Shown here in pieces: positions 2,261 through 62,680 of a DNA stretch of 64,000 bases. The stretch is taken from the NCBI GenBank assembly GCA_963514005.1, contig OY740820.1:23188001-23252000 (forward strand). Direction: 5' to 3'. The position numbers were made by a program, and so were the translations under genes. The stretch is from Raja brachyura (lineage: Eukaryota). The notes beneath the pieces were generated by a model, which searched no databases, was not told where the DNA came from, and worked only from the letters and a program-made list of their open reading frames with translations. Position 1 is the stretch's first letter. Each line of letters starts with the position of its first letter.

Positions 2261-2607
2261 ATGGGCTATTCTTGGGTTCATTCATGTGAATTGAGACACA
2301 CGACAATATGGTTTACTCTTAACCATTAGGTTATTTCAGAGGGCAGATTGAAGTGGGCAATATTTGCCCACAGGCATCCACATCCCCCAAATGACTAATA
2401 GGAATACTGTGGGTGGTCAGCCTTTGGCAAGTTGTGTCATCATCATCACCATCTTTTAAAATAATGTTGTGCAGATGACAAATTAATTTAGTTCTCAGTC
2501 TGCAGTTAACAGAATTATGAATTTCACCACCTTTTCTTGATTGCTACTTGGATCAGTCCTATTTCTCACAATATAGAATGTGGGATAGTGAAGCACAGGA
2601 ACAGGCC

Positions 2608-2826
2608 AAAGGTAGACACGCAATGCTGGAATAACTCAGCGGGACATGTAGCATCTCTGGATAGAAGGAATGGGTGATGTTTCGGGTCGAGACCCCTCAG
2701 AAGGCTCTCGACCCGAAACATCACCCATTCCTTCTATCCAGAGATGCTGCCTGTTCTGCTGAGTTATTCTAGCATTTTGTGTATCTATCTTCGGTATAAA
2801 CCAGCATCTGCAGTTCCTTCCTACAC
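2608..2826. mobile_element. Penelope-like element fold-back copy inserted in a CR1 tail
   Basis: About 85-bp inverted arms; cacaggaacaggcc duplicated at 2594-2607 and 2824-2837. Confidence 0.8.
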
Positions 2827-8600: not shown

Positions 8601-8813
8601 GCAAGGTAATGGTAAGCTGCCATGTATCACCATGACAAAGGAACACCCATTGTACCATAGGGGTGGACTTTCAAGGTGTAGATCCAGTGACAATGAAAGA
8701 TATATTTCTAAGCCAGCGAGATGTGAAATTTGGAGGGGAATATGCAGGCTGGGTTCCAATTCCTTATGTAGTTACGTAGGTGGTTTGGGAGGTACTTTTG
8801 ATCTTCGGGTCGA

Positions 8814-8945
8814 GATCTTCAGAAGGGTCTCGACCCAAAACGTCACCCTTTCCTTCTCTCCATAGATGCTGCCTCACCCGCTGAGTTTATCCAGTATTTT
8901 TGTCTACTTTCGATTTTTCCAGCATCTGCAGTTCTTTCTTAAACA
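8814..8945 (+). mobile_element. Penelope-like element copy with short 5' inversion
   Basis: ttcgggtcgaga inversion, then agaagggtctcgacccaaaacgtc...gcagttctttcttaaaca. Confidence 0.75.
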
Positions 8946-9105: not shown

Positions 9106-9200
9106 TCAGTCTGAAGAAGGGTCTCGACCCGAAACGTCGCCTATTCCTTCTTTCCATAGATGCTGCCTCACCCACTGAGTTTCTCCAGCATTTTTGTCTA
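9106..9200 (+). mobile_element. Short Penelope-like element copy with intact hammerhead core
   Basis: Same family as 27528-28181; flanked by acttgtta(t/c)tg direct repeat (9090-9100, 9201-9211). Confidence 0.8.
9111..9138 (+). ncRNA. Minimal type-I hammerhead ribozyme motif (PLE type), sense to MYO9A pre-mRNA
   Basis: CTGAAGA + A + stem II GGGT-CTCG-ACCC + GAAA + CG + TC; ACGT palindrome replaces stem III; stem I very short. Confidence 0.65.
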
Positions 9201-10824
9201 ACTTGTTACTGATAGTTAATCTAAAAATTACCTATTTATCCTGACACCATTTCCTGTCATTAGCCACTACGCTGTCCATGCCAGTTTATTATTCCAACTG
9301 GTGCATTTTTCTTATGCAGCAGCCTTTTCTGTGGGACCTCATTGAATGCCTTTTGGAACGCCAAATATACTACTTTTATTAACTCCCTCTTTCCACCCTG
9401 TACTGGTATATGAACTATTTATAAAGGATCAGGATACTCAAAGCTACTTGCAGTTAATGACAACACACCATTTATGGTCCAAGCTGCATGTTTTCCATGC
9501 ATGTTAATTTTGTGATTTGTGTACCAGCACTTTTCAGTTGCATTCCATTTAAATATCAATTATTGAATTATTTTTTCCCAACCAAAATGAATTCTCACAT
9601 GTTTCTACATTTGTTTCTATTTGTGCGTCTGCACCCATTCACTTTGTCTGTTCTTAACTCACACTATTGCCTTGCTCAGTATCATCCACAGACATTGTAA
9701 ATATTCCACATGATCTCTTCATCCGTATCATTGATAGAGACGATGAACAGCTGAGTCTCAGCACAAATGTCTGCAGCCTTCAAACTGAAAATTACCCTTT
9801 GCCCCATGTCTATGAACCGATCTCCAATCCACACCAGTATATCATCCCTATCAGTGCACAGACATTCTGCTTGATAGTTTTTTTAATATAGTCCCTTACT
9901 GAAGGCCATCAAGCATATCTCAACTAATTTGCCCTTATCCATTCTGTTAGTTACAAACTAAAAAAAAAGCTTTACCAATTTGTCAAATGTGATTTATTTT
10001 CTGTAAATCCATGTTGGCTTAAAGCAAATCTGTCACTATTTTGTAATTGACATATTACTACTTCATAATGGGCTCCACTTTTTCTTGCTACTGCTGCCAG
10101 CTAACTGGTGTATAGATGTTTGCTGCTTCTCTCTCTCGTAGATAGTGTGGTTACATTTGTTACCTTTCAACCTGTGGATATCATCCTAGAATCAATGGAA
10201 TTTGATCACCAGTGCATCCACAATCTCTGTTACTTCCGCTCTATGAAAGTCTTGTGAAGAGTTTCAAAGGGAGAACGTTTGTAATGATGGTCTGTAGATC
10301 AAACCTATAATTTCCATGGTTCTAAACTTAATATTCCATGACTGGTTGGTGTTGTTGGGGATGTGAATCTAGGACCCAGGCATCAAAAGCAGGTTCAAAA
10401 TTAAGCTTGGGTGTAAAGGTAAAAAAAAAGTGAATCTCAGAGTCAGGAGATTGTGTCACATTATTTCAGAATTAGACTACAGAAGGTGAGGCAAGACCAT
10501 GAGGCATTTCATTTCATTGCACATCTTGTATGTGTATGTGACGAATAAACTTGACTTGAGACCCAAACCATTCGAATGTGTATTTGTAATTAAGATAGGA
10601 AATTAGGGCACAATTATTATTACAAGTATTGGGAGGTACATTTAATGACAGCTGGCAGAAAACCAAAAACTGCCTCCAGAACAAAGTGCTGCTGAGTGTT
10701 AAAATAGTCAATAGAATAAAATAAAGTCCATACGGCCAATATTTTGGAATTATAAAGTGATGTCTTCAGATACATTAAACTTTTTACAATTAAGTTGTGC
10801 AAGTTGGTGATTCATCATGTCATA

Positions 10825-11170: not shown

Positions 11171-11426
11171 AGTTAATTATGAACATAACATTTTTGATTA
11201 ACATTCATGAATATTCCCAATTGTGCAAAGTACCTCACTTAAATGGAGGCATTAATACCTGTTCTCCCAGCATTGAAGGTGTACGTTGGAAAGGCTGTGG
11301 AAGAAAAAGTGAAATACAAATGCTATTTCATGTCCTGCATGTTCCTGGATGAATAATTTCCCAGTATTTTGGATTCTGTGGTTGTTTTGCCATTCTCTAA
11401 TCTCAATTGAATCATTTGTACTACAG

Positions 11427-11548
11427 GAGGAGTACAGGACAGAAGGCATCAGTTGGCACAATATTGATTATATTGACAACAGTGGTTGCATTAATCTCAT
11501 CATCAAGAAACCCACAGCTTTGCTCCACCTACTGGATGAGGAGTGCAA
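11427..11548 (+). CDS. MYO9A: MYO9A exon B: [40 protein letters not shown](N)
   Basis: ctacag| acceptor, AA|gtaagt donor, 122 nt, phase 0/2; myosin LLDEE motif. Confidence 0.96.
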
Positions 11549-24993: not shown

Positions 24994-25204
24994 ATGAATG
25001 TTCTTCATCTTGGTGAATTCAAAATTCATAACTAAGTGAAAAATAAAATGATATTTGAAATGAGAACTATTTATGCTTTAAGAAGTGTTTAGACAACAGG
25101 AATTCTGTATTAAGGAGGTGAATGAAAAGAGCTTGGTGTTTGTTTATGTTCTGCCTGAATCAGAATTGAATTCAAAACTACAATAGTGTTTCATGTATGC
25201 GGCT

Positions 25205-25575
25205 GTCATAAGTTCATAAGTGATAGGAACAGAATTATGCCATTCGGCCCATCAAGTCTACGCCGCCATTCAATCATGGCTAATCTATCTCTTCCTCTTA
25301 ACCCCATTCTCCTGCCTCCTTCCCATAACCATTGACACCCGTACTAATCAAGAATCTATCTATCTCTGCCTTAAAAACTAGTAAAAACTTAAATTGACTA
25401 GTCCTCCATGGCCTTCTGTGGCAAAGAATTTCACAACCCTCTGACTAAAGACATTCCTCCTCATCTCCTTCCTAAAGGAACGTCCTTTATTTCTGAGGCT
25501 ACAACTTCTGGTCCTAGACTCTCCCACTAATGGAAACATCCTCTCCACATCCACTCTATCCAAACCTTTCGCTAT
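25205..25575 (-). mobile_element. CR1 LINE 3' fragment
   Basis: GLDRVDVERMFPLVGESRTR..FSQRVV (ORF 25378..25590). Confidence 0.85.
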
Positions 25576-26822: not shown

Positions 26823-27043
26823 TGTTAAAGAAGGAACTGCAGATGCTGGAGAATCGAGGGTTACACAAAAAGCTGGCGAAACTCAGCGGGTGCAGCAGCA
26901 TCTAAGGAGCGAAGGAGATAGGCGACGTTTCGGTTCGAGACCCTTCTTCAGACTGAAGGGTCTCGACCCGAAACGTCGCCTATCTCCTTCGCTCCTTAGA
27001 TGCTGCTGCACCCGCTGAGTTTCTCCAGCTTTTTGTGTAACCC
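26823..27043. mobile_element. Penelope-like element, near-perfect fold-back (89-bp arms)
   Basis: Arms 26858-26946 and 26955-27043 with 2 mismatches; acccaaaacaca duplicated at 26810-26821 and 27040-27051; hammerhead core on minus strand 26924-26951. Confidence 0.85.
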
Positions 27044-27527
27044 AAAACACAGTGACTTGTGCTGAACCTTGAGTTCATAGAATCGTAGAACACTTACGGC
27101 ACAGGAGGAGACCATTGTTTCTCAATTCTTCCTCTCAAACTGCATGACCTCATTTCTCTGCATTATATTTCCTCTGCCATATGTCTATCTGTTGGCATCT
27201 CCATTCTCACAGTTCTCAGTGCTGCCAAGTTTTATGTCATTTGGAAATTTGGAAATTGTGTTTTGACATCATCATACTTGTGGGGTATTAAACCTTGAGC
27301 ATGAACAGGCTGTTGGGTAATTGGTGGCATCCCAGCCAAGAGAGGCTGTCTTAAAAACATTTACACAAAATATTTTGTTACTTTGGATGCAGGTACTGTA
27401 AAAGCTACTTTCCTATAATTGCAGTGTTAATCTGCCTCATGTTGCCTAATAAAGCAATTGACAAAAGAATAATGAGCAAATAATTTGCACCTTCCATAAC
27501 AGGTCACAAATCAAGAGCATTGTGTTA

Positions 27528-28181
27528 GACGCAAAATGCTGGAGTAACTCAGTGGGTCAGGCAGTATATCTGGATAGAAGGAATGGGTGACGTTTCTGAT
27601 CGAGACCCTTCTTCAGATTGAGAGTCGGAAGAGGGAGGCACTCAATCTGCCAAAAACTACCTGATCTCCTGGTTGCTAAACACTTTAACTCCTCCTCCCA
27701 TTCCCACACTGACCTTTCTGCCGTAGGCCCCCTCCACTGTCAGAGTGAGGCCCAGCGCAAATTGGAGGAACAGCACCTCATATTTCGCTTGGGCCGCTTG
27801 CACCCCAGCGGTATGGATATTGACTTCTCTAACCAAGTAACCCTTACTTTCCCTCTCTCTCCATCCCTCCCCCTTTCTAGTTCTCTGACCAATCTGTGTC
27901 CCCTTGATTAAAATGTATTTCTGTATGCTTTGTTGTCACCTTCTCCTCGTTAACAATGATCTATTCCACATTTTCCTTGAACTTTGTCCCCTTTGATGTC
28001 TCATTTTCACAAACCATTTCTGATCTCTGTGCCTCCCTCTCCCCTGACTCTCTGAATAAGGGTCTCGACCCAAAACATCACCCATTCCTTCTATCCAGAG
28101 ATGCTGCCTGTCCTGCTGAGTTACTCGAGTATTTTGTATCTATCTTCGGTGTAAACCAGCGTCTGCAGTTCCTTCCTACAC
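27528..28181 (+). mobile_element. Penelope-like element 3' fragment: inverted pLTR segment + GIY-YIG endonuclease C-terminus + 3' UTR/pLTR
   Basis: ORF 27618..27911 LVAKHFNSSSHSHTDL...RKLEEQHLIFRLGRLHPSGMDIDF resembles the PLE GIY-YIG C-terminus; 16-bp TSD caagagcattg(t/c)gtta at 27512-27527 and 28181-28196. Confidence 0.85.
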
Positions 28182-30249
28182 AAGAGCATTGCGTTAATCT
28201 ATTTGTTTCCATCTTTTCTCACAATCAGGGGCAACAAGCCTAGTTCCTGCTATCCTGGGTTGGGGTCACAACACAAAGTGAACCTCACCTTTGTTGCTCT
28301 TTATGTGAGCAGTTGAGCATGTATGCTATTCTCAGCACTGGAATGTCTGCATTTCTTGCAAGTATGGTCTGCAGAGAGGGCTTTTCTATGAACATGAGAG
28401 ATCAGAGCTCAAGTGTTCAGAAAGCTGGCGTGATTGGTCTTATTCAGTGATGCAGCTTGGCATAGTTTTAGTTTGGACCTATTTTTGAATCAATAGCTGT
28501 TTAATATTTCATAACTTCCATTTAATTTCACCAGGACTAACCCAGTTACAACAATACTGTTCATGTCCATTTTTAAATACTGGGTTACGTGGCGAGAACT
28601 TGAAGCAAACCTTGAGCTATGAAGTTCAGCCTGCAGTGACCATCTGGGAAATTTGATTGTAACAAAATCAGAAATTATATTAATTGAGTTCTTATGATGG
28701 TGCATATTCTGGGTGTTTGCGAATGGCGAGAGGCTGTTAAATTAACATGGAGATAGATTGTAAAAGTGTAAACTGATCTCACTGTATTGCTAACTCAGTT
28801 CTGAAATGTCTTCATAATTGCTTTGGTGAAGACATACACTTGTGATTTATTGTGCATCCTTTTAGTTGCTTAGTAACCTTATTAATCATACAGCTGCTTC
28901 CTGTGTGACTTCATTCGGAACATATGGGATTGCCAGCAGAATAATAAAAAAATCTTGGGCTCTCTACTCCCAGTTATTGTAGTGTGAATAAACCTTTCAA
29001 TTCGTCTAAATATTAGGAATGAAATCTGCACCGAGCAGGAAATTATTTATTTTGTTGCCCTATATTTAGATTAGAGTTGTTCACTGTTGTTCAGCAGACT
29101 AATTCCTTCGATCACCTATGGGACTTCTAAAATTAATAAATTCTCTTTCATGTTCAAATTATCATCCCTACCCACCCCGTGCACCTTAAACTCCACATTT
29201 ACAAATCCCTACAGTGATCAATACTGGGACCTCAGTTGTTTGTGATATATGTAAGTGACGGATGAAAGTGTGATTAGTAATTTGCAGTTGACACACAAGT
29301 TGTAGATGCAGACAGTGAAGAAAGGGTGAGAGGTTACACCAAGATAAATCTCTGAAATTAAAACTAGACAAAATCTGATCGAACCCAGTTTAAGAACTAC
29401 AAATTTAAATCCTTTTGTCACACGGTATCTCTGTTATTCTTCATGTTAAAGTGTTGAGTATTTTCATCATTTGCATTTCATATTTTTTGTTCTATTGATT
29501 TCAGATTTTCATTGTTAAACTGAGAATGCTAAAGGTTATCATAGAACTGTTTTTTATATTTTTGCTAAGGTTGTAAAGAATCGCATTTAATATATGTACT
29601 TGGCCGATTCAATTTTACATCTTCCAGTTTAATTTAACAAGTCAAAACATGAATGGGTTTTGGTATGGCATTGCCACTGCCTCAGTATGTCTGTGTGTTC
29701 AAGTCATTACATTTATTACAATGAGAATGATAGCAGAATTATTTTAATTTGAATTTGAGTTTTTCTGAGGAATAGGTGACAAAGGCAGAGAAAGGACGAT
29801 TATTAAAGTCTGCAGAGGCTTAATCAGTAGTGATTAGGTCTCTAATGTTTTATATCATCCACGGAAATGCAGTAATCATAATCTTACATTCAAGAAAATA
29901 AATGAACAGATTAAAACAAATAAAACCTGAAGCGTTTGGAAACACGTGGCAGGTCGGCAGTATCTTTGGGGCGGAAAAGCATAGCTAACAGTTCACAGTG
30001 CAATTTCATAAGAATATTGTGACATATTCCTAAATTCATTGTTTCAATAAAAATGTAACAGACCCTTATTAAAATCGGAAGCCAGTCGATAAGGGTGATG
30101 AATCAACATTAATCTACTTTTGGTCTTTCTCATTTTGATGAGCCGGCAGGGTACTTCAGTTACGTCCTTTATTTTGTGTTGGATCTGTGAAAAGGTGGGC
30201 TTTATTTTTATTTTTACCACTGACGTTTTTTTCTCTTTGTTTTGCACAG

Positions 30250-33110: not shown

Positions 33111-33302
33111 GTGAGAATGTGTACTGATGTTACTGATGTGTGCTGATTATCTTGGCCTATGCATGATGATCACAATGTGATTGTAAATTATGTTTGTGCA
33201 CAGAGAGTTTTGATTTACTAAAATGACTGTTGTGAGAAATCGTTAAAGTATCAAACGAGTCTCCTGAATTTCATAAATGATTGGAGCAGAATTAGGTAAT
33301 TC

Positions 33303-34310
33303 AATAGACAATAGGTGCAGGAGTAGGCAATTCGGCCCTTCAGATTCAGATTCAATTTTAATTGTCATTGTCAGTGTACAGTACAGAGACAACGAAATGC
33401 ATTATGCATTTCAAGCCAACACCGCCATTCACTATGATCATGGCTGATCATCCACATATTCCACCGGGTGGCACCGTCAGCGATGGCAGCTTCACCAACG
33501 GTCTGTCTGTCTTTTCGGCTTTTTTGTTATTTTCAGTGTGTTTTAAAAGTATGTGTTCATGTTTTCTGGTTTGTTTTATGTGGGGGGTGGGAGAGGGGGT
33601 CGGAGGAAACTTTATTTTTCGATCTCTTTCCTTGCCGGAGATCCGATTGTTTTCCGGATCGTATCTCCGGTCGCTCTGCGGCCTAACATCATGGAGCTGG
33701 TGGCCTTGCTCGAGACTGACTTTGAGCCCCACCGCGGGGCCGTGGACTTGCCATCGGAGCCTGCGATCCCTTGCCTGGAATCAACGCACAAACAGTGGCC
33801 TGCAGATTTCAACATCGAGGAGCTCGCAGTCTCGGGTAGAGACTGATGTCAGGAAGCTCCAAAGCCGCAGAAAGTTCGACTAGCCCGGTCCCGCGGTCTG
33901 GACTCCCCCAACATCGGGAACATGTTTCCTGCCTCTAGTGTATCCAATCCCTTAATAATCTTATATGTTTCAATAAGATCACCTCTCATCCTTCTAAATT
34001 CCAGTGTATACAAGCCCAGCTGCTCTATTCTTTCAACATATGACAGTCCCGCCATCCTGGGAATTAACCTTGTGAACCAACGCTGCACTCCCTCAATAGC
34101 AAGAATGTCCTTCCTCAAATTTGGAGATCAAAACTGCACACAATACTCCAGGTGTGGTCACACCAGGGCCCTGTACAACTGGACTTCTTTGCTCCTATAC
34201 TCAACTCTTCTTGATATGAAGGCCAACATGCCATTAGCTTTCTTCACTGCCTACTGTACCTGCTTGCTTACTTTCAGTGAGTGATGTACAAGGACACCCA
34301 GATCTCGTTT
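33303..34310 (-). mobile_element. Young CR1 3' fragment interrupted by a Rex-like tail (33341-33402) and a GC-rich element (about 33460-33897), itself nested in another CR1 tail
   Basis: ORF 33849..34118 nearly identical to part of ORF 46219..47016. Confidence 0.8.
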
Positions 34311-35035
34311 TTCGTCCCATTACGTCTACTCCGCCATTCAATCATGGCTAATGTATTTTCCCCTCTCAACCCAATTTTCCTGCTATCTCCCGATAGCCCC
34401 TGACACCCGTTCCAATCAAGATTCTATCTCTGCCTTAAAAGTATCTATTGACTTGGACTTCGCAGCCTTCTGTGGCAATGAGTTCCACAGATTTCCACAT
34501 TGCAATGAAATTTCGTTCAGACTGAAAGGATATTTTGTTTCTCTACCCCCCCCCCCCTCCTTTCTTTACCTCTGACGAGCATCCCATGTCTACACCACTA
34601 ACTGGGTGCTGATTTGAATCTGTAGCCAGTAAGAGGAACAGTGTAAGTTGTGGCAGTAAAGCTGCAAATGATTCATAGTCAGTGTTGGATGATGAACACA
34701 CTGTTATTTTTGAGTTGGCAAACAGCTTCCCTCCTTTCAACTCAGTTACCAAAGATGGAAACTTACAGGCTTGCTGATGAGTGAAACGTGCCAGTTCATT
34801 CAGCAGTTCATATCGGTTCTGCCCAGCTTTACTAATGTTTACTGAATAAACTGCTGCATTGGACATGGAGTTTATTTTCACGCTCTTTATTGATTGGCTT
34901 TATGGTGTGCGTGCACTCGGTGGGCTGAAGGGCCTGTTTCCGCGCTGCATCTCTGATTGCAAGCCGTGCAGATGGTTAGGTTAATCAGCAACTGTAAATT
35001 GACATTTGTGTGTGGTGAGGGGTAAGATCTGAGAT

Positions 35036-35215
35036 GAAACATAGAAACATAGAAATTAGGTGCAGGAGGAGGCCATTCGGCCCTTCGAGCCTGCACCGCC
35101 ATTCAATATGATCATGGCTGATCATCCAACTCTGTATCCTGTACCTGCCTTCTCTCCATACCCTCTGATCCCCTTAGCCACAAGGGCCACATCTAACTCC
35201 CTCTTAAATATAGCA
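35036..35215 (-). mobile_element. CR1 3' tail inserted in a V-SINE remnant
   Basis: (gaaacata)n tail; near-identical to reverse complement of 46935-47115. Confidence 0.85.
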
Positions 35216-35719
35216 AGTGAGGGGAACGTAGGGAGAATAGTGTGGGATTGGTGTATGTAGGTGCATGGACATGATGACAAGGAGTCTGGTTCCATTCGGC
35301 GTCCCTTCTTGACTTCTTCCCATGCTGTGGTCAGAAAAGTCCACAAAAATATTCATCAAAGTTTCATTTTGTCTTTAAATAGATTTCAAAACAAAGCTAG
35401 TCTCAGAAAATACCATTACGAAACGACAGTATTATTTATAAACCCACCTGGTTCACGGGCGTATTTTGGGGAAGGAAATCTGCTGTCTTATCTAGTCTGG
35501 GCAACATGAGTTCAGATCTACCCATGTACATAGTTGTCTTTTAAATATCTCATCAGATCAGGATAGTTTGGTGTGGACAGTAAGTTGTGGCATTAGCTGC
35601 AATGTCCACATCTTGTGAATGAATTAGAACATTTCCATCTTTCCCTTGTACTTTCCTTGTGTTATGGTTTGCATATTTCACTAAGATATCAATGATATCT
35701 TACCATTACCATTGGGGCC

Positions 35720-37387: not shown

Positions 37388-37859
37388 GTCTTGTATCTAT
37401 TCCTCAATTTAATGACAAATTAGTTGAGAAACCAGAATTGAAGACTAAACATGGTAGAACAGGGTAAATTGTACAGATAGGTGATATGGAAATCTGAAAT
37501 AAATGCAGCAATTGCTAGTAATACATGAGGATGGGAAACATCTTTGAAGAGAGCAACATTATAATAAATTTAATTAATTAGAATAATAGTTTGCACTTGC
37601 ATAAAGCCATTAACATCTAAAGAGGTGTCTCAGGGGTGCACTTAAGGCTGCGATTATGGAGCTAAGGAGGGGTAGGGCTAAGTCTGTTATGAGAATGCAT
37701 TTTTTAAATACTGGTGTGGCAGTCTGAAGCATGGTTGGGGGGGGCGGGGGTTTCGAACATGTCACCCTGTTCAACTATTCTGAAATAGAAGTGAGTGGTC
37801 GTGTAATGGATCTTGGTGTGCCCAGTATGCATCTGAAAGTCAGTCTCATTACAAGATGA

Positions 37860-37952
37860 CAGACACAAAATGCTGGAGTAACTCAGCGGGTCAGGCAGCA
37901 TCTCTGGAGAGAAGGAATGGGTGACGTTTCGGGTCGAGACGTTTCTTCAGAC
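37860..37952 (-). mobile_element. Short Penelope-like element copy
   Basis: agacacaaaatgctggagtaactcagc...gacgtttcgggtcgagac..ttcttcaga; attacaagat duplicated (37848-37857, 37959-37968). Confidence 0.8.
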
Positions 37953-40421: not shown

Positions 40422-40707
40422 TTAGAATAAAGGGGAGGTCATTTAAGACTGAGCTGAGAAAAAAACTTTTTTACCCAGAGAGTTGTGAATTTATGGAATT
40501 CCCTGCCAGAGGGCAGTGAAGGCCAAATCACTGGATGGATTTAAGAGAGAGTTGGATAGAGCTCTAGGAGCTAGTGGAGTCAAGGGATATGGGGAGAAGG
40601 CAGGCACGGGTTATTGATAGGGGACGATCAGCCATGATCACAATGAATGGCGGTGCTGGCTCTAAGGGCCGAATGGCCTCCTCCTGCACCTATTTTCTAT
40701 GTTTCTA
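40422..40707 (+). mobile_element. CR1 3' fragment
   Basis: ttacccagagagttgtgaatttatggaattccctg...ttttctatgtttctat tail. Confidence 0.85.
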
Positions 40708-40902
40708 TTCTTTAGTTCTGTCCTTCTGACTCTGTTATCAAATACCTTTGCAGTCTCTTTTTCTCACACTATGTAGTACACAGAAATGTTTAGCTTCATT
40801 GGTGGTGATGTTTCAGGGACATTATCACATCTGTGTATTTACTTCTTCATGCCTTCTTTGCTGTGTAATACTGTTGCATTTGTCCTGCATCTTCCTCTGT
40901 AG

Positions 40903-45435: not shown

Positions 45436-46226
45436 ACTGGTTTATGTCCTATGTTATGTACAAAATGTATTACGGTTATTCATCCGGGCTATTTGAACTG
45501 CACTGACCAAACCCGCAAGCTCCACCAGCAAGGAAGGCGAGGGCAGCTGGCCTGGGAGAATAGTGGCACCTGCAGGTTCCCCTCCAAGTTGCATACATTC
45601 TGATTTGGAAATATATCTCTGGGTTTAAATGTTAAAAAATCCTACCCAACAGCATTGTGGGAGTACCAGGAGGCCTAGATTTGTTAGAGCATGGGCAATA
45701 AATGGTGGCCTTGCCAGTGACACCCAGATATACAGAATAAGAAAGTTCAATTCATCAATATATTTCACAGTTATTTTCATTGCTGAGCCGCTAACTCTTA
45801 CTTTCACTTGCTTGTCGTAACATGTACAGTGTTTAATTTAAGGTGCAAGTTAATAATTGAGTGTTGAAAGAGTTGACTAATGACTTTATGTAACACAAAG
45901 GAGAAGAGAGTGTAATCTAAGAATCGTTTAAAAAATAATAAGGGTAAATTGTTTTGAAGTATTTCACCCACAGCTCCAAATGATTTGGATTTCTTTCTAT
46001 TCTACTGAAAGACCTTAGTGAGGGGGACACGATCATGAGCAGCATGGGTAAAGTGAATACTTTCGGTCTTTTCTGGAGGACATTGGCTTAAGATGAGAAG
46101 GGAGAGGGTTAAGAGGGACCTTGGGCAACCATTTCACTCCGTGGGTAGTCCATATCTAGAATAAGCTGCCAGGAGAAGCAGTAGAAGCACATTACAACTT
46201 TTGTAAGGTATCTGGACAATGATTGC

Positions 46227-47115
46227 TTGGAAGCTGCAGGGTGATTTGGATAGGCTGAGTGAATGGGCAGATGCATGGCAGATGCAGTACAATGTGGATA
46301 AATGTGAGGTTATCCACTTTGGTGGCAAAAACATGAGGGTAGACTATTATCTGAATGGTGGCAGATTAGGTAAGGGGGAGATGCAACGAGACCTGGGTGT
46401 CATGGTACACCAGTCATTGAAAGTAGGCATGCAGGTGCAGCAGGCAGTGAAGAAAGCAAATGGTATGTTAGCATTCATAGCGAAAGGATTTGAGTATAGG
46501 AGCAGGGAGGTTCTACTGCAGTTGTACAGGGTTTTGGTGAGGCCACACCTGGAGTACTGCGTACAGTTTTGGTCTCCAAATCTGAGGAAAGACATCCTTG
46601 CCATAGAGGGGGTACAGAGAAGATTCACCAGACTGATTCCTGGGATGTCAGGACTTTCATATGAGGAAAGATTGGATAGACTCGGTTTGTACTCGATGGA
46701 ATTTAGAAGATTGAGGGGGGATCTTATAGAAACCTACAAAATTCTTAAGGGGTTGGACAAGCTAGATGCTGGAAGATTGTTCCCGATGTTGGGGGAGTCC
46801 AGAACAAGGGGTCACAGTCTAAGGATAAGGGGGAATTCCTTTAGGACCGAAATGAGGAAAACATTCTTTACACAGAGAGTGGTGAGTCTCTGGAATTCTC
46901 TGCCACAGAAGGTAGTTGAGGCCAGTTCATTGGCTATATTTAAGAGGGCGTTAGATGTGGCACTTGTGGCTAAAGGGATCAGGGGGTATGGAGAGAAGGC
47001 AGGTACGGGATACTGAGTTGGATGATCAGCCATGATCACATTGAATGGCGGTGCAGGCTCGAAGGGCCGAATGGCCTACTCCTGCACTTATTTTCTATGT
47101 TTCTATGTTTCTATG
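46227..47115 (+). mobile_element. Young 5'-truncated CR1 LINE (RT C-terminus, 265-aa open frame, 3' UTR, (ttctatgt)n tail), nested in an older CR1
   Basis: LQGDLDRLSEWADAWQMQYNVDKC..RPHLEYCVQFWSP..TRGH..FFTQRVV; older host at 46020-46220 and 47116-47222. Confidence 0.92.
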
Positions 47116-53110: not shown

Positions 53111-53203
53111 TTTATAGAGCAGTAGATGTGTACGGAGCATTCAGAGTAGGATTGCTCAATCACAGACACCCTTAATTTCATGGAAGGACCCTCGGAGCAA
53201 TGG

Positions 53204-53299
53204 AAGATAGACACAAAATGCTAGAGTAACTCAGCGGGACAGGCAGCATCTCTGGAGAGAAGGAATGGGTGACATTTTGGGTCGAGACCCTTCCTCAGA
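53204..53299 (-). mobile_element. Short Penelope-like element copy
   Basis: gagcaatgg duplicated at 53195-53203 and 53298-53306. Confidence 0.8.
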
Positions 53300-54845: not shown

Positions 54846-54978
54846 GTGTGTGGGAAGGAACTGCAGATACTGGTTTAAACCGAAAATAGACACAAAATGC
54901 TGAGGTAACTCAGTGGGACAGGCAGCATCTGTGGAGAGAAGGAATGGATGATGTTTCGGGTCAAGATCCTTCTTCAGA
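54846..54978 (-). mobile_element. Short Penelope-like element copy
   Basis: agatttgaagtg duplicated at 54837-54848 and 54976-54987. Confidence 0.8.
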
Positions 54979-55024: not shown

Positions 55025-55368
55025 AGACAATAGACAATATGTGCAGGAGTAGGCCATTTGGCCCTTTGATCCAGCACCGCCATTCAATGTGATCGTGGCT
55101 GATTATCCCTAATCAGTACCCCGTTCCTGCCTTCTCCCCATATCCCCTGACTCCGCTATTTTTAAACTCTCTTGAAAGTATCCAGAGAACCTGCCTTCAC
55201 CGCCCTCAGAGGTAGAGAATTCCACAGACTCACCACTCTCTGTGAGAAAAGGTGTTTCCTCATCTCCGTTATAAATGGCTTACTCCTTATTCTTAAACTG
55301 TGGCCCCTGGTTCTGGACTCCCCCAACATCGGGAACATGTTTCCTGCTTCTAGCGTGTCCAAGCCCTT
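55025..55368 (-). mobile_element. CR1 3' fragment
   Basis: DTLEAGNMFPMLGESRTRGHSLRI..FSQRVVSLWNSLP; (agacaat)n tail. Confidence 0.85.
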
Positions 55369-56446: not shown

Positions 56447-58380
56447 GTAAAATAAATAAATAACATTTAAAACATTTAAAACAGTTGTTACCATTTATCA
56501 AATACTTGGTGTTTTACAGTAATCCTTCACGATTCCTCCTATAGGATTATTGCTACACATCGCAGAAGCAATTTTTGTTTACATGTAGCACTTTCACAAG
56601 GAAGTGTTATGAATATAATTTACATGTTTGGTGGTGTTTGGAAGAGCATTGGCCAGGGCACTAGTTTAACCTGTTTCCTTTACAGTACCATACAGATTTC
56701 TTGCAAACTAATTTGGAAAATTCTCCATATAATATTAAGAATTATTAGGCCATCTTTGGTTGCTGAGGCTTTTGATATCTTCAGCTGCATACATTCACAC
56801 GCGGAGACTATATATGGAGTGTTAATCAATGTTTTTCCTTACGATTGTATTTTCCTGTGGCAGATAGTATTCTGTATTTATTCACCGTGAGGCAAATGTG
56901 AGTTATATTTAAAGTTCATTTTTTATTTCATGAAACTTAATGAAGATTGGAAGCACAATCTTGGACGATCTTGTTGCTTGAAATTGACAGCTAGATTGTA
57001 TTGGAAGGAGTGCAATGAACCCATTGATTATACATTAATCATGTAACAAAACTTCAACTCAATCATCTCACTCAAAATTTGAACCAAAATAATATGGTTC
57101 AAACCCCATTCTCACCTTAAAACTGTAGCTGCTTGCAGTGTAGCAGCTGCTGCTGGCATCGACGATGGCTGCCACGGTGGACTGCTGCACCAAGGCAAAT
57201 ACCTTGTATGTGAATACTTGGCCAATAAACTTATTCTTATTCATTCATATGGTAGAATTGAGTTGCATTCAACCTGCCTTCCACTAAGTTGGGCTGGACA
57301 AGGAAGTCTGAATGAGCTGATCCTCTACATCTGGGAGGCATAGCAAGGTGTCTGAACCCCGCAAATGACAAGGGAAAGGCTAGGGATGGAACCTTGTTTT
57401 GTTAAACAATTTCATGTGATTGATGTGCAGAAACATTTAAAAAACCAAGATTATTTTAAAAATAAAAATTAAAAGTTTAAAAATAAAAAGTACTAAATAC
57501 AAAACACTTGTGAATAACTAAAATAAATGAGAAATATAACCAGGCGTACCTTTAACTAATCTACAGGCCGGGAATCCCCATTTGAATTGAATTGCTGTTC
57601 TTATGCCAGGTCTGATGGGCATTGGATCTGAAGATGGATTGTGCAGTGTAAGGCTTGATTAGGCTTCACTGTTGGCTCTAGCTGGAATGATCGATGCCCT
57701 GTAACACCACAAACTTGCAGCACTTTGAAGAGAAGGGCACAGGCCCGGTCAACGTGATTTGGCCATATATCGTCTCGATATTCAAACAAAATGCCTTTCA
57801 TCCCATCTGGGACAGGAGTTAACAGAATCTTAGCCTCCTTTAATGTCTGTAACATGGTGCCTTTAATAGATTTAATGTGCCTTTTAAGCCTCAGACAATC
57901 TCCGCCAACCTCAGGGCACAATTTGCATGCTCAGCTCTTAATTTGAATTTAAAAGTTAATCTTAGAAAGTTAATTAATGCTACAGTACATCCCCAAGGAA
58001 GTATAAAATCAAAGGGAATGAATGAAATAAAGTACAAAGTCTCATTTTTAAAAGTTATGTAGGTTGGCAATACCACGGGGTAGGTTGCAATGTGATGGAG
58101 GATGTACTCACTCTGAATGAAAGCACTGCAATGTCAGATTTCAGGCTACTTAGTCAAATGCATTCTCACTTTGAACTATAATTTAGTGTGCATTTTTAGA
58201 CTAATTGAACCAAAATGGTTAATTTATTAGGAATGTTTACATTGCAGGGAGAAAGATTTTATAGGAATTCGAGGGCCAATTGTTTTTACATAAAGGGTGG
58301 TCAGTGTATGGAACAAGCTGCCTGAGGAGGTAGTTGAGCCAGATACTATCACAACATTTATGAAACATTTGAATACATGA

Positions 58381-58760
58381 AGATGGACACAAAATGCTCA
58401 AGTAACTCAGCGGGACAGACAGCATCTCTGGAGAGAAGGAGTGGGTGACGTTTCGTGTCGAGACCCTTCTTCAGACTGATGCCAGGGGAGAGGGAGATAC
58501 ATATATGAGGAAATGTAAGGTGTAAAAATAGAACATAGCGAATGCAGATCAAGGAGATCAATGTAGAATAGATCATTGTTCGCTGGGAGAAGATAACAAC
58601 AAAGCAAACAGAGACGGTACAACTGGTCCGAGAATTGGGAAGGGGGTGGGATGGAAAGAGAGGGAAAGCAAGGGTTACTTGAAGTTAGTGAAGTCAATGT
58701 TAACTGCCTAAGTGAAACATGAGGGGCTGTTCTTCTAATATGCACTGGGCCTCACTCTGG
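58381..58760 (-). mobile_element. Penelope-like element 3' fragment with decayed GIY-YIG tail and hammerhead core (58447-58474), adjacent to a CR1 fragment (58235-58380)
   Basis: Reverse complement aligns by eye with 27740-28145; minus strand reads ctgaagaagggtctcgacacgaaacgtc. Confidence 0.8.
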
Positions 58761-59628
58761 CATAGAGTGACAGGTTTCTGAGGTTAGTGTAGAAAAGTAG
58801 CATTGAGGTAGAAATGTTGCCATCTTATTGAATGAAGCAGTGTGAGCAAGATGGACTATTCATGTGACAAGTTTAAATTTTATGTGATTAATATTTTCAA
58901 ATTTCTTGCTGTGAATTGAATTTTATATTCCATCATAACATACTTGTGCTCATAGGTGAGTTTGAAAAGGAGTACGGTACATCTACATAAATTCAATGTT
59001 TGGTTTAACGGGTATATAGAATTGATCGGGACTATTAATGTGGGATTTTATTTTGAATTTGGAAAATTTGAAAGTTTGACCAAGTTCAACTGATTTTGAA
59101 AGATTTATTGAACTGCAAAAAGAAAATGGAGATTTCTTTATATAATTAATGGCAAAAACTAAAGGCTGAAGAGAACAACAGTTCATATGTTGGGCATTGA
59201 AAAATCTAAATATAGCAATAATGAACCCATTGTTTCTGTCCTGATTTGGGGTCCAATAGTAACGCATGACAACAGAATTAAAGGCATATCTATCCCCGCT
59301 GTGATGCATTTTGTGAGGAATTTAATAAAAGTAGAACTATTTAATAAGTTTAGAGCTTTTCCTATTTTTCCCTCTGGGGATGTACTTGGCCTCTGCTTAG
59401 CACAATAAATTGAAGCAACCAGTAAAGTTACATAGTTTAAACTGGGAGCTCTTGGTGCAATCAATACAGGCAAAACCAATTCCAATATTCTTGTCCACTA
59501 AAGTTCCTGAATATATCATTGGGATTGTAACATAATATTAAAAGATTGATGAGAAGAAAACAATACCAGATGAGTTAGTTGCAGAGATGAGTTTGGTGAT
59601 GCTTTTGAACTTTGCTGTTGTCACGCAG

Positions 59629-61791: not shown

Positions 61792-61839
61792 ATGCAAAAA
61801 ACTGAAAGGAAAAAGAGACGGAAAAAAGAAACTGACATT
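61792..61839 (+). CDS. MYO9A: MYO9A exon W (48 nt, precedes C1 domain): MQKTERKKRRKKETDI
   Basis: ttcag| acceptor, ATT|gtaagt donor. Confidence 0.93.
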
Positions 61840-61852
61840 GTAAGTTGTCTAA

Positions 61853-61945
61853 TTCTCCTGTCATGCGTGTTCTGTGCTTGGTTCAGAGTTCTCCTGTCAT
61901 GCGTGTTCTGTGCTTGGTTCAGAGTTCTCCTGTCATGCGTGTTCT
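61853..61945 (+). repeat. 36-bp tandem repeat, about 2.6 perfect copies
   Basis: Unit ttctcctgtcatgcgtgttctgtgcttggttcagag starting at 61853, 61889 and 61925. Confidence 0.95.
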
Positions 61946-62403: not shown

Positions 62404-62680
62404 GTCTGAAGAATGGTCTCGACTCAAAACGTCATCTATTTGTTTTCTCCAGAGTGTGACCTGCTGAGTTACTCCAGCTTTTTGTGTCTATCTTCAGTGT
62501 AAACCAGCATCTGCAGTTCCTTCCTCCACCTATCACTCGCCCAGATTTGTCCCGCTCCCATCTTCCGGATATTACCTCACTACTACAATCAGTCTGAAGA
62601 AGTGCCCTGACCAGAAATGTCATCAATCCATGTTCTCCTGAGATGCTGTCTGAGCCACTGAATCACTCCAGTACTTTCTA
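62404..62680 (+). mobile_element. Two tandem/nested decayed Penelope-like copies
   Basis: gtctgaagaa...aaacgtc at 62404 and agtctgaagaag...gaaatgtc at 62591; tccacctat duplicated. Confidence 0.65.

What the first reader, a model, noticed from the sequence alone, without database searches (positions are those of the whole stretch)
9106..9200. Hammerhead-ribozyme motifs scattered through MYO9A introns by a Penelope-like element
Seen: a recurring repeat reads CTGAAGA-A-GGGT(CTCG)ACCC-GAAA-CG-TC. The best sense-strand copy is 9111-9138. A CpG-decayed CTGATGA version is at 24865-24892, and antisense copies are at 26924-26951 and 58447-58474. Established: CUGANGA / stem II / GAAA...UH is the hammerhead catalytic core, and Penelope-like elements are known to carry minimal type-I hammerheads whose stem III is replaced by a palindrome (here ACGT), thought to act as dimers. 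The family assignment is supported by a GIY-YIG C-terminus on the same repeat at 27618-27830. Inference: the MYO9A pre-mRNA carries several potential self-cleaving half-units that could pair in cis and cut introns co-transcriptionally. Stem I looks very short, so activity is uncertain.
Basis: partly seen in the sequence, partly recalled or inferred. Interest (0 to 1): 0.75.

Follow-up and report, generated by a model that had tools for sequence, protein, structure and literature searches.

The report
Penelope transposon stubs with minimal hammerheads
The repeated motif in these MYO9A introns is the stripped-down hammerhead-ribozyme signature carried by a known kind of jumping gene that left tens of thousands of identical copies across this genome, and the copies in MYO9A are likely inert passengers rather than switches that cut the gene's RNA.

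Summary
The motif is real (16 matches against 0.04 by chance). It is the minimal type-I hammerhead in the pseudo-LTR of a Neptune-type Penelope-like element, a known kind (PMC4209133). Copies with an open 1191-aa RT/GIY-YIG frame between two hammerheads exist in this genome. MYO9A is ordinary: the 28-mer has 50,608 exact copies genome-wide, and the window holds the one expected. In 905 kb of genes, core-bearing copies are 121 sense and 125 antisense (intact: 24 and 21). Core columns decay like other columns. Of the four copies named, only 9111 is intact. Helix I is 2 bp, and folding buries the core. The next intact sense copy is 72 kb away. Cleavage of MYO9A pre-mRNA is unlikely. The more interesting by-product is that 5' ends pile up 0-6 nt before the core (18 of 55 ORF-bearing copies), not at the cleavage site (1 of 55). 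This suggests the element's RNA starts at the hammerhead and is mostly copied uncut. The scan already reported this family, and this idea, on other pieces of this genome, and the same kind of repeat in other genomes.

The parts
9107..9202 (+). Short Penelope-like pLTR stub, from 4 nt before the hammerhead core to about +91 (the 'no tail' 3' end); lies in the MYO9A intron between exons 698-829 and 11424-11543
9111..9138 (+). Minimal hammerhead: core CUGAAGA 9111-9117, extra A 9118, helix II 9119-9122/9127-9130, GAAA 9131-9134, palindrome ACGT 9134-9137, predicted cut after C9138; helix I only 9109-9110 with 9139-9140
   Evidence: numbering by PMC4209133
8800..8941 (+). Nearest sense copy (core broken, ACGT at 8840-8843 kept) with a short inverted remnant at about 8800-8820 that is predicted to base-pair with the 9111 core
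24839..24996 (+). Decayed sense copy; core 24865-24892 with G-U at 10.1-11.1 and ACAT in place of the palindrome
26823..27043 (.). Young head-to-head palindrome (98-100% identical to the young family): minus arm -4 to +128 with tail, plus arm +5 to +93 without; minus core has a stem II mismatch, plus core is truncated
27526..27636 (-). Inverted pLTR copy at the 5' end of the endonuclease-bearing insertion
27645..27842 (+). C-terminal part of the GIY-YIG endonuclease of the element (5'-truncated)
27843..28185 (+). Pyrimidine-rich 3' region, broken hammerhead at 28052 and tail of the same insertion
58379..58762 (-). Antisense 5'-truncated copy with endonuclease remnant, 3' region and hammerhead 58447-58474 (stem II mismatch)
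2606..2825 (.). Older head-to-head palindrome, both cores truncated; source of the chance Rfam hits
37855..37952 (-). Further short copy, broken motif
53203..53299 (-). Further short copy, broken motif
54849..54978 (-). Further short copy with tail, broken motif
62404..62675 (+). Two further decayed sense copies, both broken

Best explanation
The motif is the minimal hammerhead in the pseudo-LTR of a very abundant Neptune-type Penelope-like retrotransposon, and the copies in MYO9A introns are short insertions that likely decay neutrally and likely do not cut the pre-mRNA. Shown: family membership, copy number, end positions, lack of strand bias. Inferred: the element protein nicks DNA and starts reverse transcription inside its RNA at two sites, about +90 and +128 from the core, as in the anole element. 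When it uses the sites near the RNA's 5' end it runs off 3-4 nt before the core, which leaves a 95-135 bp stub holding the whole hammerhead. Priming on both target strands gives head-to-head pairs with one long and one short arm. The ribozyme likely matters only in the element's own RNA, as a protein-assisted dimer.
For: Intact element: 1191-aa ORF with RVT_1 and GIY-YIG matches below Pfam cut-offs, with hammerheads on both sides in 3 of 14 RT-bearing loci fetched (L092, L094, L102). It has the CX2-5CxxC linker and the two cysteines inside the GIY-YIG motif (criteria from PMC8557442). Copy number: 50,608 exact 28-mers and 92,605 matches to a core-plus-palindrome pattern; reversed controls 0. 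Orientation in 905 kb of genes: all copies 206 sense/207 antisense, core-bearing 121/125, intact 24/21, Fisher p 0.62. Departure from the commonest letter: 7.8% in 10 core columns, 8.0% in 10 other non-CpG columns, 15-23% in CpG columns, 312 copies. 3' ends cluster at +79 to +97 and +122 to +134. 121 head-to-head pairs among 653 copies against 7 tail-to-tail; of 94 classifiable pairs 69 are long+short (44.7 expected) and 2 long+long (14.2 expected). 5' ends: 18 of 55 ORF-start-bearing copies ending between -100 and +160 end at -6 to +2 (p 2e-13), 1 at +28. ViennaRNA gives stem II probability about 0 in the 9111 context and in the young family.
Against: No cleavage assay and no raw RNA reads were available, so absence of cutting is inferred. 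The strand test excludes only a sizeable bias (sense fraction 95% CI 0.43-0.56 for core-bearing, 0.38-0.68 for intact copies). The column comparison is biased by anchoring on the motif. Folding programs ignore proteins and tertiary contacts. Genome-wide junction counts in the young family show more copies starting at the cleavage site (+28: 121) than at +27 (22), +29 (47) or +30 (19), an excess of about 2-4-fold by my hand correction for filter width and element-derived flanks; rare cutting of the element RNA is therefore not excluded. The motif is kept intact in the youngest family and covaries across species, so it does something for the element.
Confidence: 0.87

Rival explanations
1. One reading: sense copies in MYO9A introns pair through ACGU, form a dimeric hammerhead and cut the pre-mRNA co-transcriptionally at a level that matters.
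For: 9111 has a perfect core. A sense copy 294 nt upstream keeps ACGUC and could serve as substrate half. Dimers of minimal hammerheads showed low activity in vitro (PMC4209133). Conserved intronic hammerheads exist in amniotes (PMC6155905, passages).
Against: Only 6 bp would hold that pair (4 + 2); the constrained fold is 20.1 kcal/mol above the minimum, where the 9111 core is bound by an inverted remnant. No strand bias, no extra core conservation, and copy density is typical of the genome.
Confidence: 0.04
2. The short copies are a separate non-autonomous element (SINE- or retrozyme-like) with its own short RNA, moved in trans by the Penelope protein, rather than stubs of the full-length RNA.
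For: 134 of 219 anchored solo copies lack the pyrimidine-rich upstream part and share both ends; read depth over the hammerhead segment is over 100-fold that of the 5' ORF. Animal retrozymes are proposed to derive from pLTRs (10.64898/2026.07.22.740005).
Against: ORF-bearing copies share the same 5' end. Short copies fall in the same subfamilies as long ones. Only 15 same-strand core pairs within 400 nt among 374 core-bearing copies and none with two intact motifs, whereas retrozymes are tandem arrays.
Confidence: 0.06
3. The copies act on MYO9A RNA as inverted repeats: sense and antisense stubs form double-stranded RNA that could be edited or favour back-splicing, with no ribozyme chemistry.
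For: Near-perfect palindromes (26858-27043, 98% complementary over 89 nt), 18 sense and 19 antisense core-bearing copies in the gene, predicted duplex of 9111 with the 8800-8820 remnant. The Alu analogy is recalled.
Against: No RNA data tested it; it would hold for nearly every gene of this genome and implies no function.
Confidence: 0.03

Closest known systems
Minimal type-I hammerheads (min-HHR) in pLTRs of metazoan Penelope-like elements (Cervera and De la Pena 2014, PMC4209133)
   Same: CUGANGA and GAAA...UH boxes, extra nucleotide between 9 and 10.1, G10.1-C11.1, palindromic 15.2-16.2 without helix III, location in both pLTRs, mostly dispersed single copies; reported from fish Xena, Poseidon and Neptune elements.
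   Different: Helix II is 4 bp and helix I 2 bp (7-8 and 4-5 bp in Schistosoma; 2 bp helix I as in Drosophila virilis). At least 92,605 core-plus-palindrome matches against about 4,000 and 9,000 in coelacanth and Xenopus, counted by a different descriptor. No cartilaginous fish is named in the parts I read; supplements not seen.
PAc, Poseidon of Anolis carolinensis (Frangieh et al. 2024, PMC11167929)
   Same: Two 3' ends 30-40 nt apart (tail), downstream of the hammerhead; copies appear to be made from uncut RNA.
   Different: This element has the RT-EN linker Zn finger (Neptune type); its first ATG lies 163 nt after the core rather than in stem II; no biochemistry exists for it.
Neptune clade of EN+ PLEs (criteria in Craig et al. 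2021, PMC8557442)
   Same: Single ORF with RT then C-terminal GIY-YIG, CX2-5CxxC linker, partial tandems, inverted 5' copy, tail at one end.
   Different: Clade not placed on a tree here; ORF is long (1191 aa) with a proline-rich N-terminal insert compared with the mostly 660-960 aa relatives.
Non-LTR retrozymes of animals (10.64898/2026.07.22.740005)
   Same: Non-coding pLTR-related units with type-I hammerheads.
   Different: Here dispersed monomers and head-to-head pairs, not tandem arrays with intact motifs.
Conserved intronic hammerheads of amniotes (RECK and others; PMC6155905 passages)
   Same: Type-I motif in an intron.
   Different: Those are single loci conserved across species; this is one of hundreds of thousands of decaying repeat copies.

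Membership tests
EN+ Penelope-like element | One ORF with RT followed by GIY-YIG endonuclease | tested here: met
   1191-aa ORF in L092; RVT_1 E 3e-4 and GIY-YIG E 1.5e-3, both below curated cut-offs; 923 homologues with RT; window fragment 70% identical to its C-terminus
EN+ Penelope-like element | pLTRs from partial tandems, inverted 5' copy, 30-40 bp tail at one end | tested here: met
Neptune clade | CX2-5CxxC Zn finger in the RT-EN linker plus cysteine pair between GIY and YIG | tested here: met
   CNRKRCYTC and YCIRCSRCQLIYIGET in the ORF; shared with Nematis per PMC8557442
Neptune clade | RT phylogeny groups with Neptune | not tested
   No named reference set among the homologues
PLE minimal hammerhead | Core boxes, extra nucleotide 9/10.1, G10.1-C11.1, palindrome at 15.2-16.2 | tested here: met
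   9111-9138; descriptor finds 76 hits in 1.264 Mb against 1 in reversed sequence
PLE minimal hammerhead | Covariation in helices I and II | tested here: met
   Met across species: 108 distinct metagenome motifs, mean helix I 2.97 bp against 0.80 with shuffled partners; 12-row alignment, 21 cells with double changes, 0 of 500 shuffles (rows chosen by a pattern that fixes two helix II pairs). Within this genome only one-sided changes (U-A/U-G) were seen
PLE minimal hammerhead | Helix I of 4-5 bp as in most min-HHRs | tested here: not met
   2 contiguous pairs in 53 of 76 hits; third and fourth positions paired in 3% and 2% of 65 long copies. A 2-bp helix I is described for D. virilis
Active self-cleaving ribozyme | Site-specific cleavage after C17 | not testable with these tools
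   Only contigs, probably DNA, were available; junction counts inconclusive
Non-LTR retrozyme | Tandem non-coding units each with an intact hammerhead | tested here: not met
   0 of 15 close same-strand pairs have two intact motifs
Domesticated intronic hammerhead | Signs of selection at the locus | tested here: not met
   No strand bias, no extra core conservation; cross-species conservation of the 9111 copy itself not testable

The most novel reading that the evidence does not exclude
The hammerhead forms the first 31 nt of the element's mRNA: transcription starts at an initiator-like CAGT 3-4 nt before the core, which is why helix I is only 2 bp. Internal priming at the two tail sites near that 5' end, on both strands of the nicked target, mass-produces hammerhead stubs and long+short palindromes, seeding hundreds of thousands of motifs. 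Protein-assisted cutting at +28 would decap the RNA and act as a translation-versus-copying switch, leaving only a faint trace in the genome.
Probability: 0.4. Interest if true: 0.5.

Novelty: new member of a known kind. Interest (0 to 1): 0.2.

Why it matters
As filed it matters little for MYO9A: about one exact copy per 53 kb means nearly every large gene of this animal carries such motifs, without sign of selection against the sense orientation. It matters somewhat for Penelope biology, where the role of the hammerhead is open. A young, possibly active family with many copies records RNA ends at single-base resolution. It extends the two-start-site model from the anole element to a Neptune-type element and makes a sharp prediction (RNA starts at the hammerhead) that one 5' RACE or CAGE experiment can test.

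Tried and rejected
Rfam scan: no hammerhead family hit; the AEV_CRE and psbJ hits are the 2606-2825 palindrome. Pfam on the 66-aa window fragment and on L022's 187-aa frame: no match; L026 gave a weak GIY-YIG match. RNA evidence: 24 runs listed, all as contigs, none with raw reads; 4 laid. Depth rose towards the 3' end like genomic copy number, none of the 15 joints shown (884 more not shown) had GT..AG ends, and no pile of ends was given, so nothing on expression, splicing or cleavage follows. Splice model: the pyrimidine tract plus CAG before the core looks like a 3' splice site, as in D. virilis, and an AAG|GTATG donor-like site lies at the ORF start. It was set aside as the cause of the 5' peak because short copies show no shared exon upstream of -4, but splicing itself is untested. 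A cap-templated G at -4 was not seen (G 0.19 in 134 copies, about background). Cleavage-site start among truncated copies: my hand tally of the 100 listed of 4,746 matches gave about 4 at +28, fewer than at +30 or +31; the stricter counts gave an excess at +28; both are distorted by microhomology with inverted partners, so I call it inconclusive. ARAGORN found no tRNA gene in the window. No RT tree was built.

Full report
Observation. Positions 9111-9138 read CTGAAGA A GGGT CTCG ACCC GAAA CG TC. The motif occurs 16 times in the window with up to 3 mismatches, 8 on each strand, against 0.04 by chance. The gene is MYO9A on the + strand: a window exon finds 147 relatives, the named ones myosin IXa, and homologues map exons at 698-829 and 11424-11543 around the copy. 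The coding span is about 125 kb. The host is probably a skate or ray; this rests on recalled repeat families and on earlier scan notes, not on a test. Positions below count from the first C of the core as 0, so the predicted cut lies between +27 and +28.

The element. The frame 27645-27842 encodes the end of a GIY-YIG endonuclease, 70% identical over 57 aa to the C-terminus of an intact ORF elsewhere in the genome. I walked from that fragment to longer copies and fetched 14 RT-bearing loci chosen for long open frames. Three of the 14 have a hammerhead on both sides of the ORF; L092 has an open 1191-aa frame. It matches RVT_1 and GIY-YIG below the Pfam cut-offs and has 923 homologues among 7,985 candidates scored. 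It carries the linker Zn finger that marks Neptune and Nematis and is absent from Penelope/Poseidon (PMC8557442, passages). I call it Neptune-type on motifs; no tree was built.

The ribozyme motif. It fits the minimal hammerhead of PMC4209133 (parts 1-2 of 4 read: abstract, results, discussion, start of methods): core boxes, one extra nucleotide between 9 and 10.1, G10.1-C11.1, and a palindrome in place of helix III. That paper reports such motifs in fish Neptune elements, no cleavage by a monomer and low cleavage by dimers. A descriptor finds 76 hits in 1.264 Mb of this genome and 1 in the reversed sequence. The same core in metagenome contigs (122 loci, 108 distinct motifs, from 2 of 64 parts scanned) has covarying helices: mean helix I 2.97 bp against 0.80 with shuffled partners, and 11 of 122 loci carry a match to the element's protein. 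An alignment of 4 copies from this genome and 8 metagenome motifs of equal length gave 21 doubly changed cells, reached by 0 of 500 shuffles; the rows were picked by a pattern that fixes two helix II pairs. So the motif class is real. In this genome helix I is only 2 bp (53 of 76 hits; third and fourth pairs 3% and 2% in 65 long copies). ViennaRNA gives stem II a probability near 0 in the 9111 context and in the young family, because GAAGAAGG pairs with downstream pyrimidines.

Is MYO9A special? No. The exact 28-mer occurs 50,608 times in 2.70 Gb, one per 53 kb, and the 64-kb window has one. A looser core-plus-palindrome pattern gives 92,605. In 1.264 Mb sampled there were 653 copies, 374 covering the core; density was 246 per 905 kb in genes and 23 per 140 kb in 14 arbitrarily placed stretches, which extrapolates to roughly 0.4-0.8 million core-bearing copies. 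Gene orientation came from MYO9A and from ten blocks between same-strand spectrin-repeat hits, assumed to lie within single genes. Sense and antisense were 206/207 for all copies, 121/125 for core-bearing and 24/21 for intact ones; the intact share did not differ by orientation (p 0.62). Core columns departed from the commonest letter as often as other non-CpG columns (7.8% and 8.0%, 312 copies), with the caveat that copies were anchored on the motif. In MYO9A, 2 of 37 core-bearing copies are sense and intact: 9111 and one about 72 kb downstream, outside the window. The 24865 copy has lost the palindrome, and the two named antisense copies have broken stem II and are not in the pre-mRNA as hammerheads. 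The best cis partner is the unlisted copy at 8817, which keeps ACGUC; forcing the active arrangement costs 20.1 kcal/mol, and the preferred fold binds the 9111 core to an inverted remnant.

How the copies arise. 3' ends fall in two groups, about +79 to +97 and +122 to +134. This is the 30-40 bp tail, which PMC11167929 (parts 1-2 of 4 read: main text, start of methods) traced to two internal RT start sites in the anole element; that paper also found that the hammerhead cut only with the element's protein, was not needed for insertion, and left no read ends in RNA-seq. 121 head-to-head pairs were found against 7 tail-to-tail. Of 94 pairs with both arms classifiable (27 left out), 69 were long+short and 2 long+long, against 44.7 and 14.2 expected. 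Inverted copies with a tail at one end are known (PMC8557442 and PMC3846280, passages). Priming of both strands is my inference.

5' ends. In 134 solo short copies identity to the element stays at 0.64-0.70 for -1 to -3, drops to 0.42 at -4 and reaches background by -6, in all three subfamilies. I then took 90 of the 150 listed copies that carry the ORF start (the best 30 and 60 picked down the list), and dropped 3 (the reference, one at an N gap, one duplicate locus). Of 87, 32 extend more than 100 nt upstream. Of the other 55, 18 begin at -6 to +2 (p 2e-13 against uniform), 8 at -100 to -7, 13 at +3 to +34, 16 further in, and 1 exactly at +28. The simplest reading is a transcription start at the initiator-like TCAGT (consensus recalled; an internal promoter with Inr is described for Drosophila Penelope, PMC2377424, passages). 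A strong RT stop or microhomology at the near-palindrome TCAGTCTGA are rivals; the latter would suit inverted pairs but not solo copies. Whether cut RNA is ever copied is unresolved: young-family junctions number 121 at +28 against 22, 47 and 19 at +27, +29 and +30 (filters pass about 28%, 18%, 18% and 20% of random flanks), but many flanks derive from the element itself, and an unbiased hand tally showed no peak.

RNA data. One search returned contigs only; the four runs laid look like DNA and say nothing on transcription or cleavage.

Literature and earlier notes. Five searches returned no paper on hammerheads in a skate, ray or shark PLE, and none on a start site at the hammerhead; most listings I saw only as titles and abstract openings. 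The library lacks most subscription journals, I did not open the supplements of PMC4209133, and those of the retrozyme preprint (10.64898/2026.07.22.740005, parts 1-3 of 5 read; it includes one chondrichthyan genome) are closed; they may list this family. PMC6155905 was seen as passages. The scan has 56 notes on hammerheads in this genome and others in other genomes; the eight shown mostly reach the same reading, including the start-site idea. I had recorded that idea before looking; their agreement is not independent evidence. One note prompted the +28 counts.

Verdict. A real motif and a correct family call, a new member of a known kind. The MYO9A cleavage story is not supported. Interest 0.2; the start-site and run-off model is the part worth testing.

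Noticed in passing
L092:4296-4312: A strong donor-like site (AAG|GTATG) overlaps the first ATG of the intact ORF, and a pyrimidine tract plus CAG lies just before each hammerhead; splicing between them would remove the whole ORF and leave a tandem hammerhead dimer about 163 nt apart. Not among the 15 joints shown.
   Followed up: partly
L092:8115-8245 and window 28052-28185: Downstream of the hammerhead AGATGCTG (+48) and CAGCATCT (+105) are complementary in the young and the older subfamily and enclose a smaller hairpin; a candidate protein-binding or RT-start structure (z -1.6).
   Followed up: partly
G000:C18:46361415-46373609: Four ORF-start matches spaced 3,965 nt apart: a tandem array of full-length elements.
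   Followed up: no
G000, one search list: About 16 of 150 listed copies have open frames of about 1,190-1,250 aa at 94-100% identity, so the family is very young and may be active.
   Followed up: partly
window 25204-25361, 33302-35220, 40507-40725, 46207-47111, 55028-55368: A second abundant repeat family with LINE RT C-terminal remnants and a shared short 3' segment; resembles the CR1-type LINE/SINE pair of cartilaginous fishes (name recalled; Pfam gave no match to two fragments).
   Followed up: no
window 61836-61940: Short tandem repeat of about 36 nt just after a MYO9A exon-like frame (seen as repeated peptides).
   Followed up: no
L099:5231-8188: A chimeric open frame of 986 aa: another LINE's fragment fused to an internally duplicated Penelope RT and endonuclease, reading through the 3' region into the hammerhead.
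   Followed up: no
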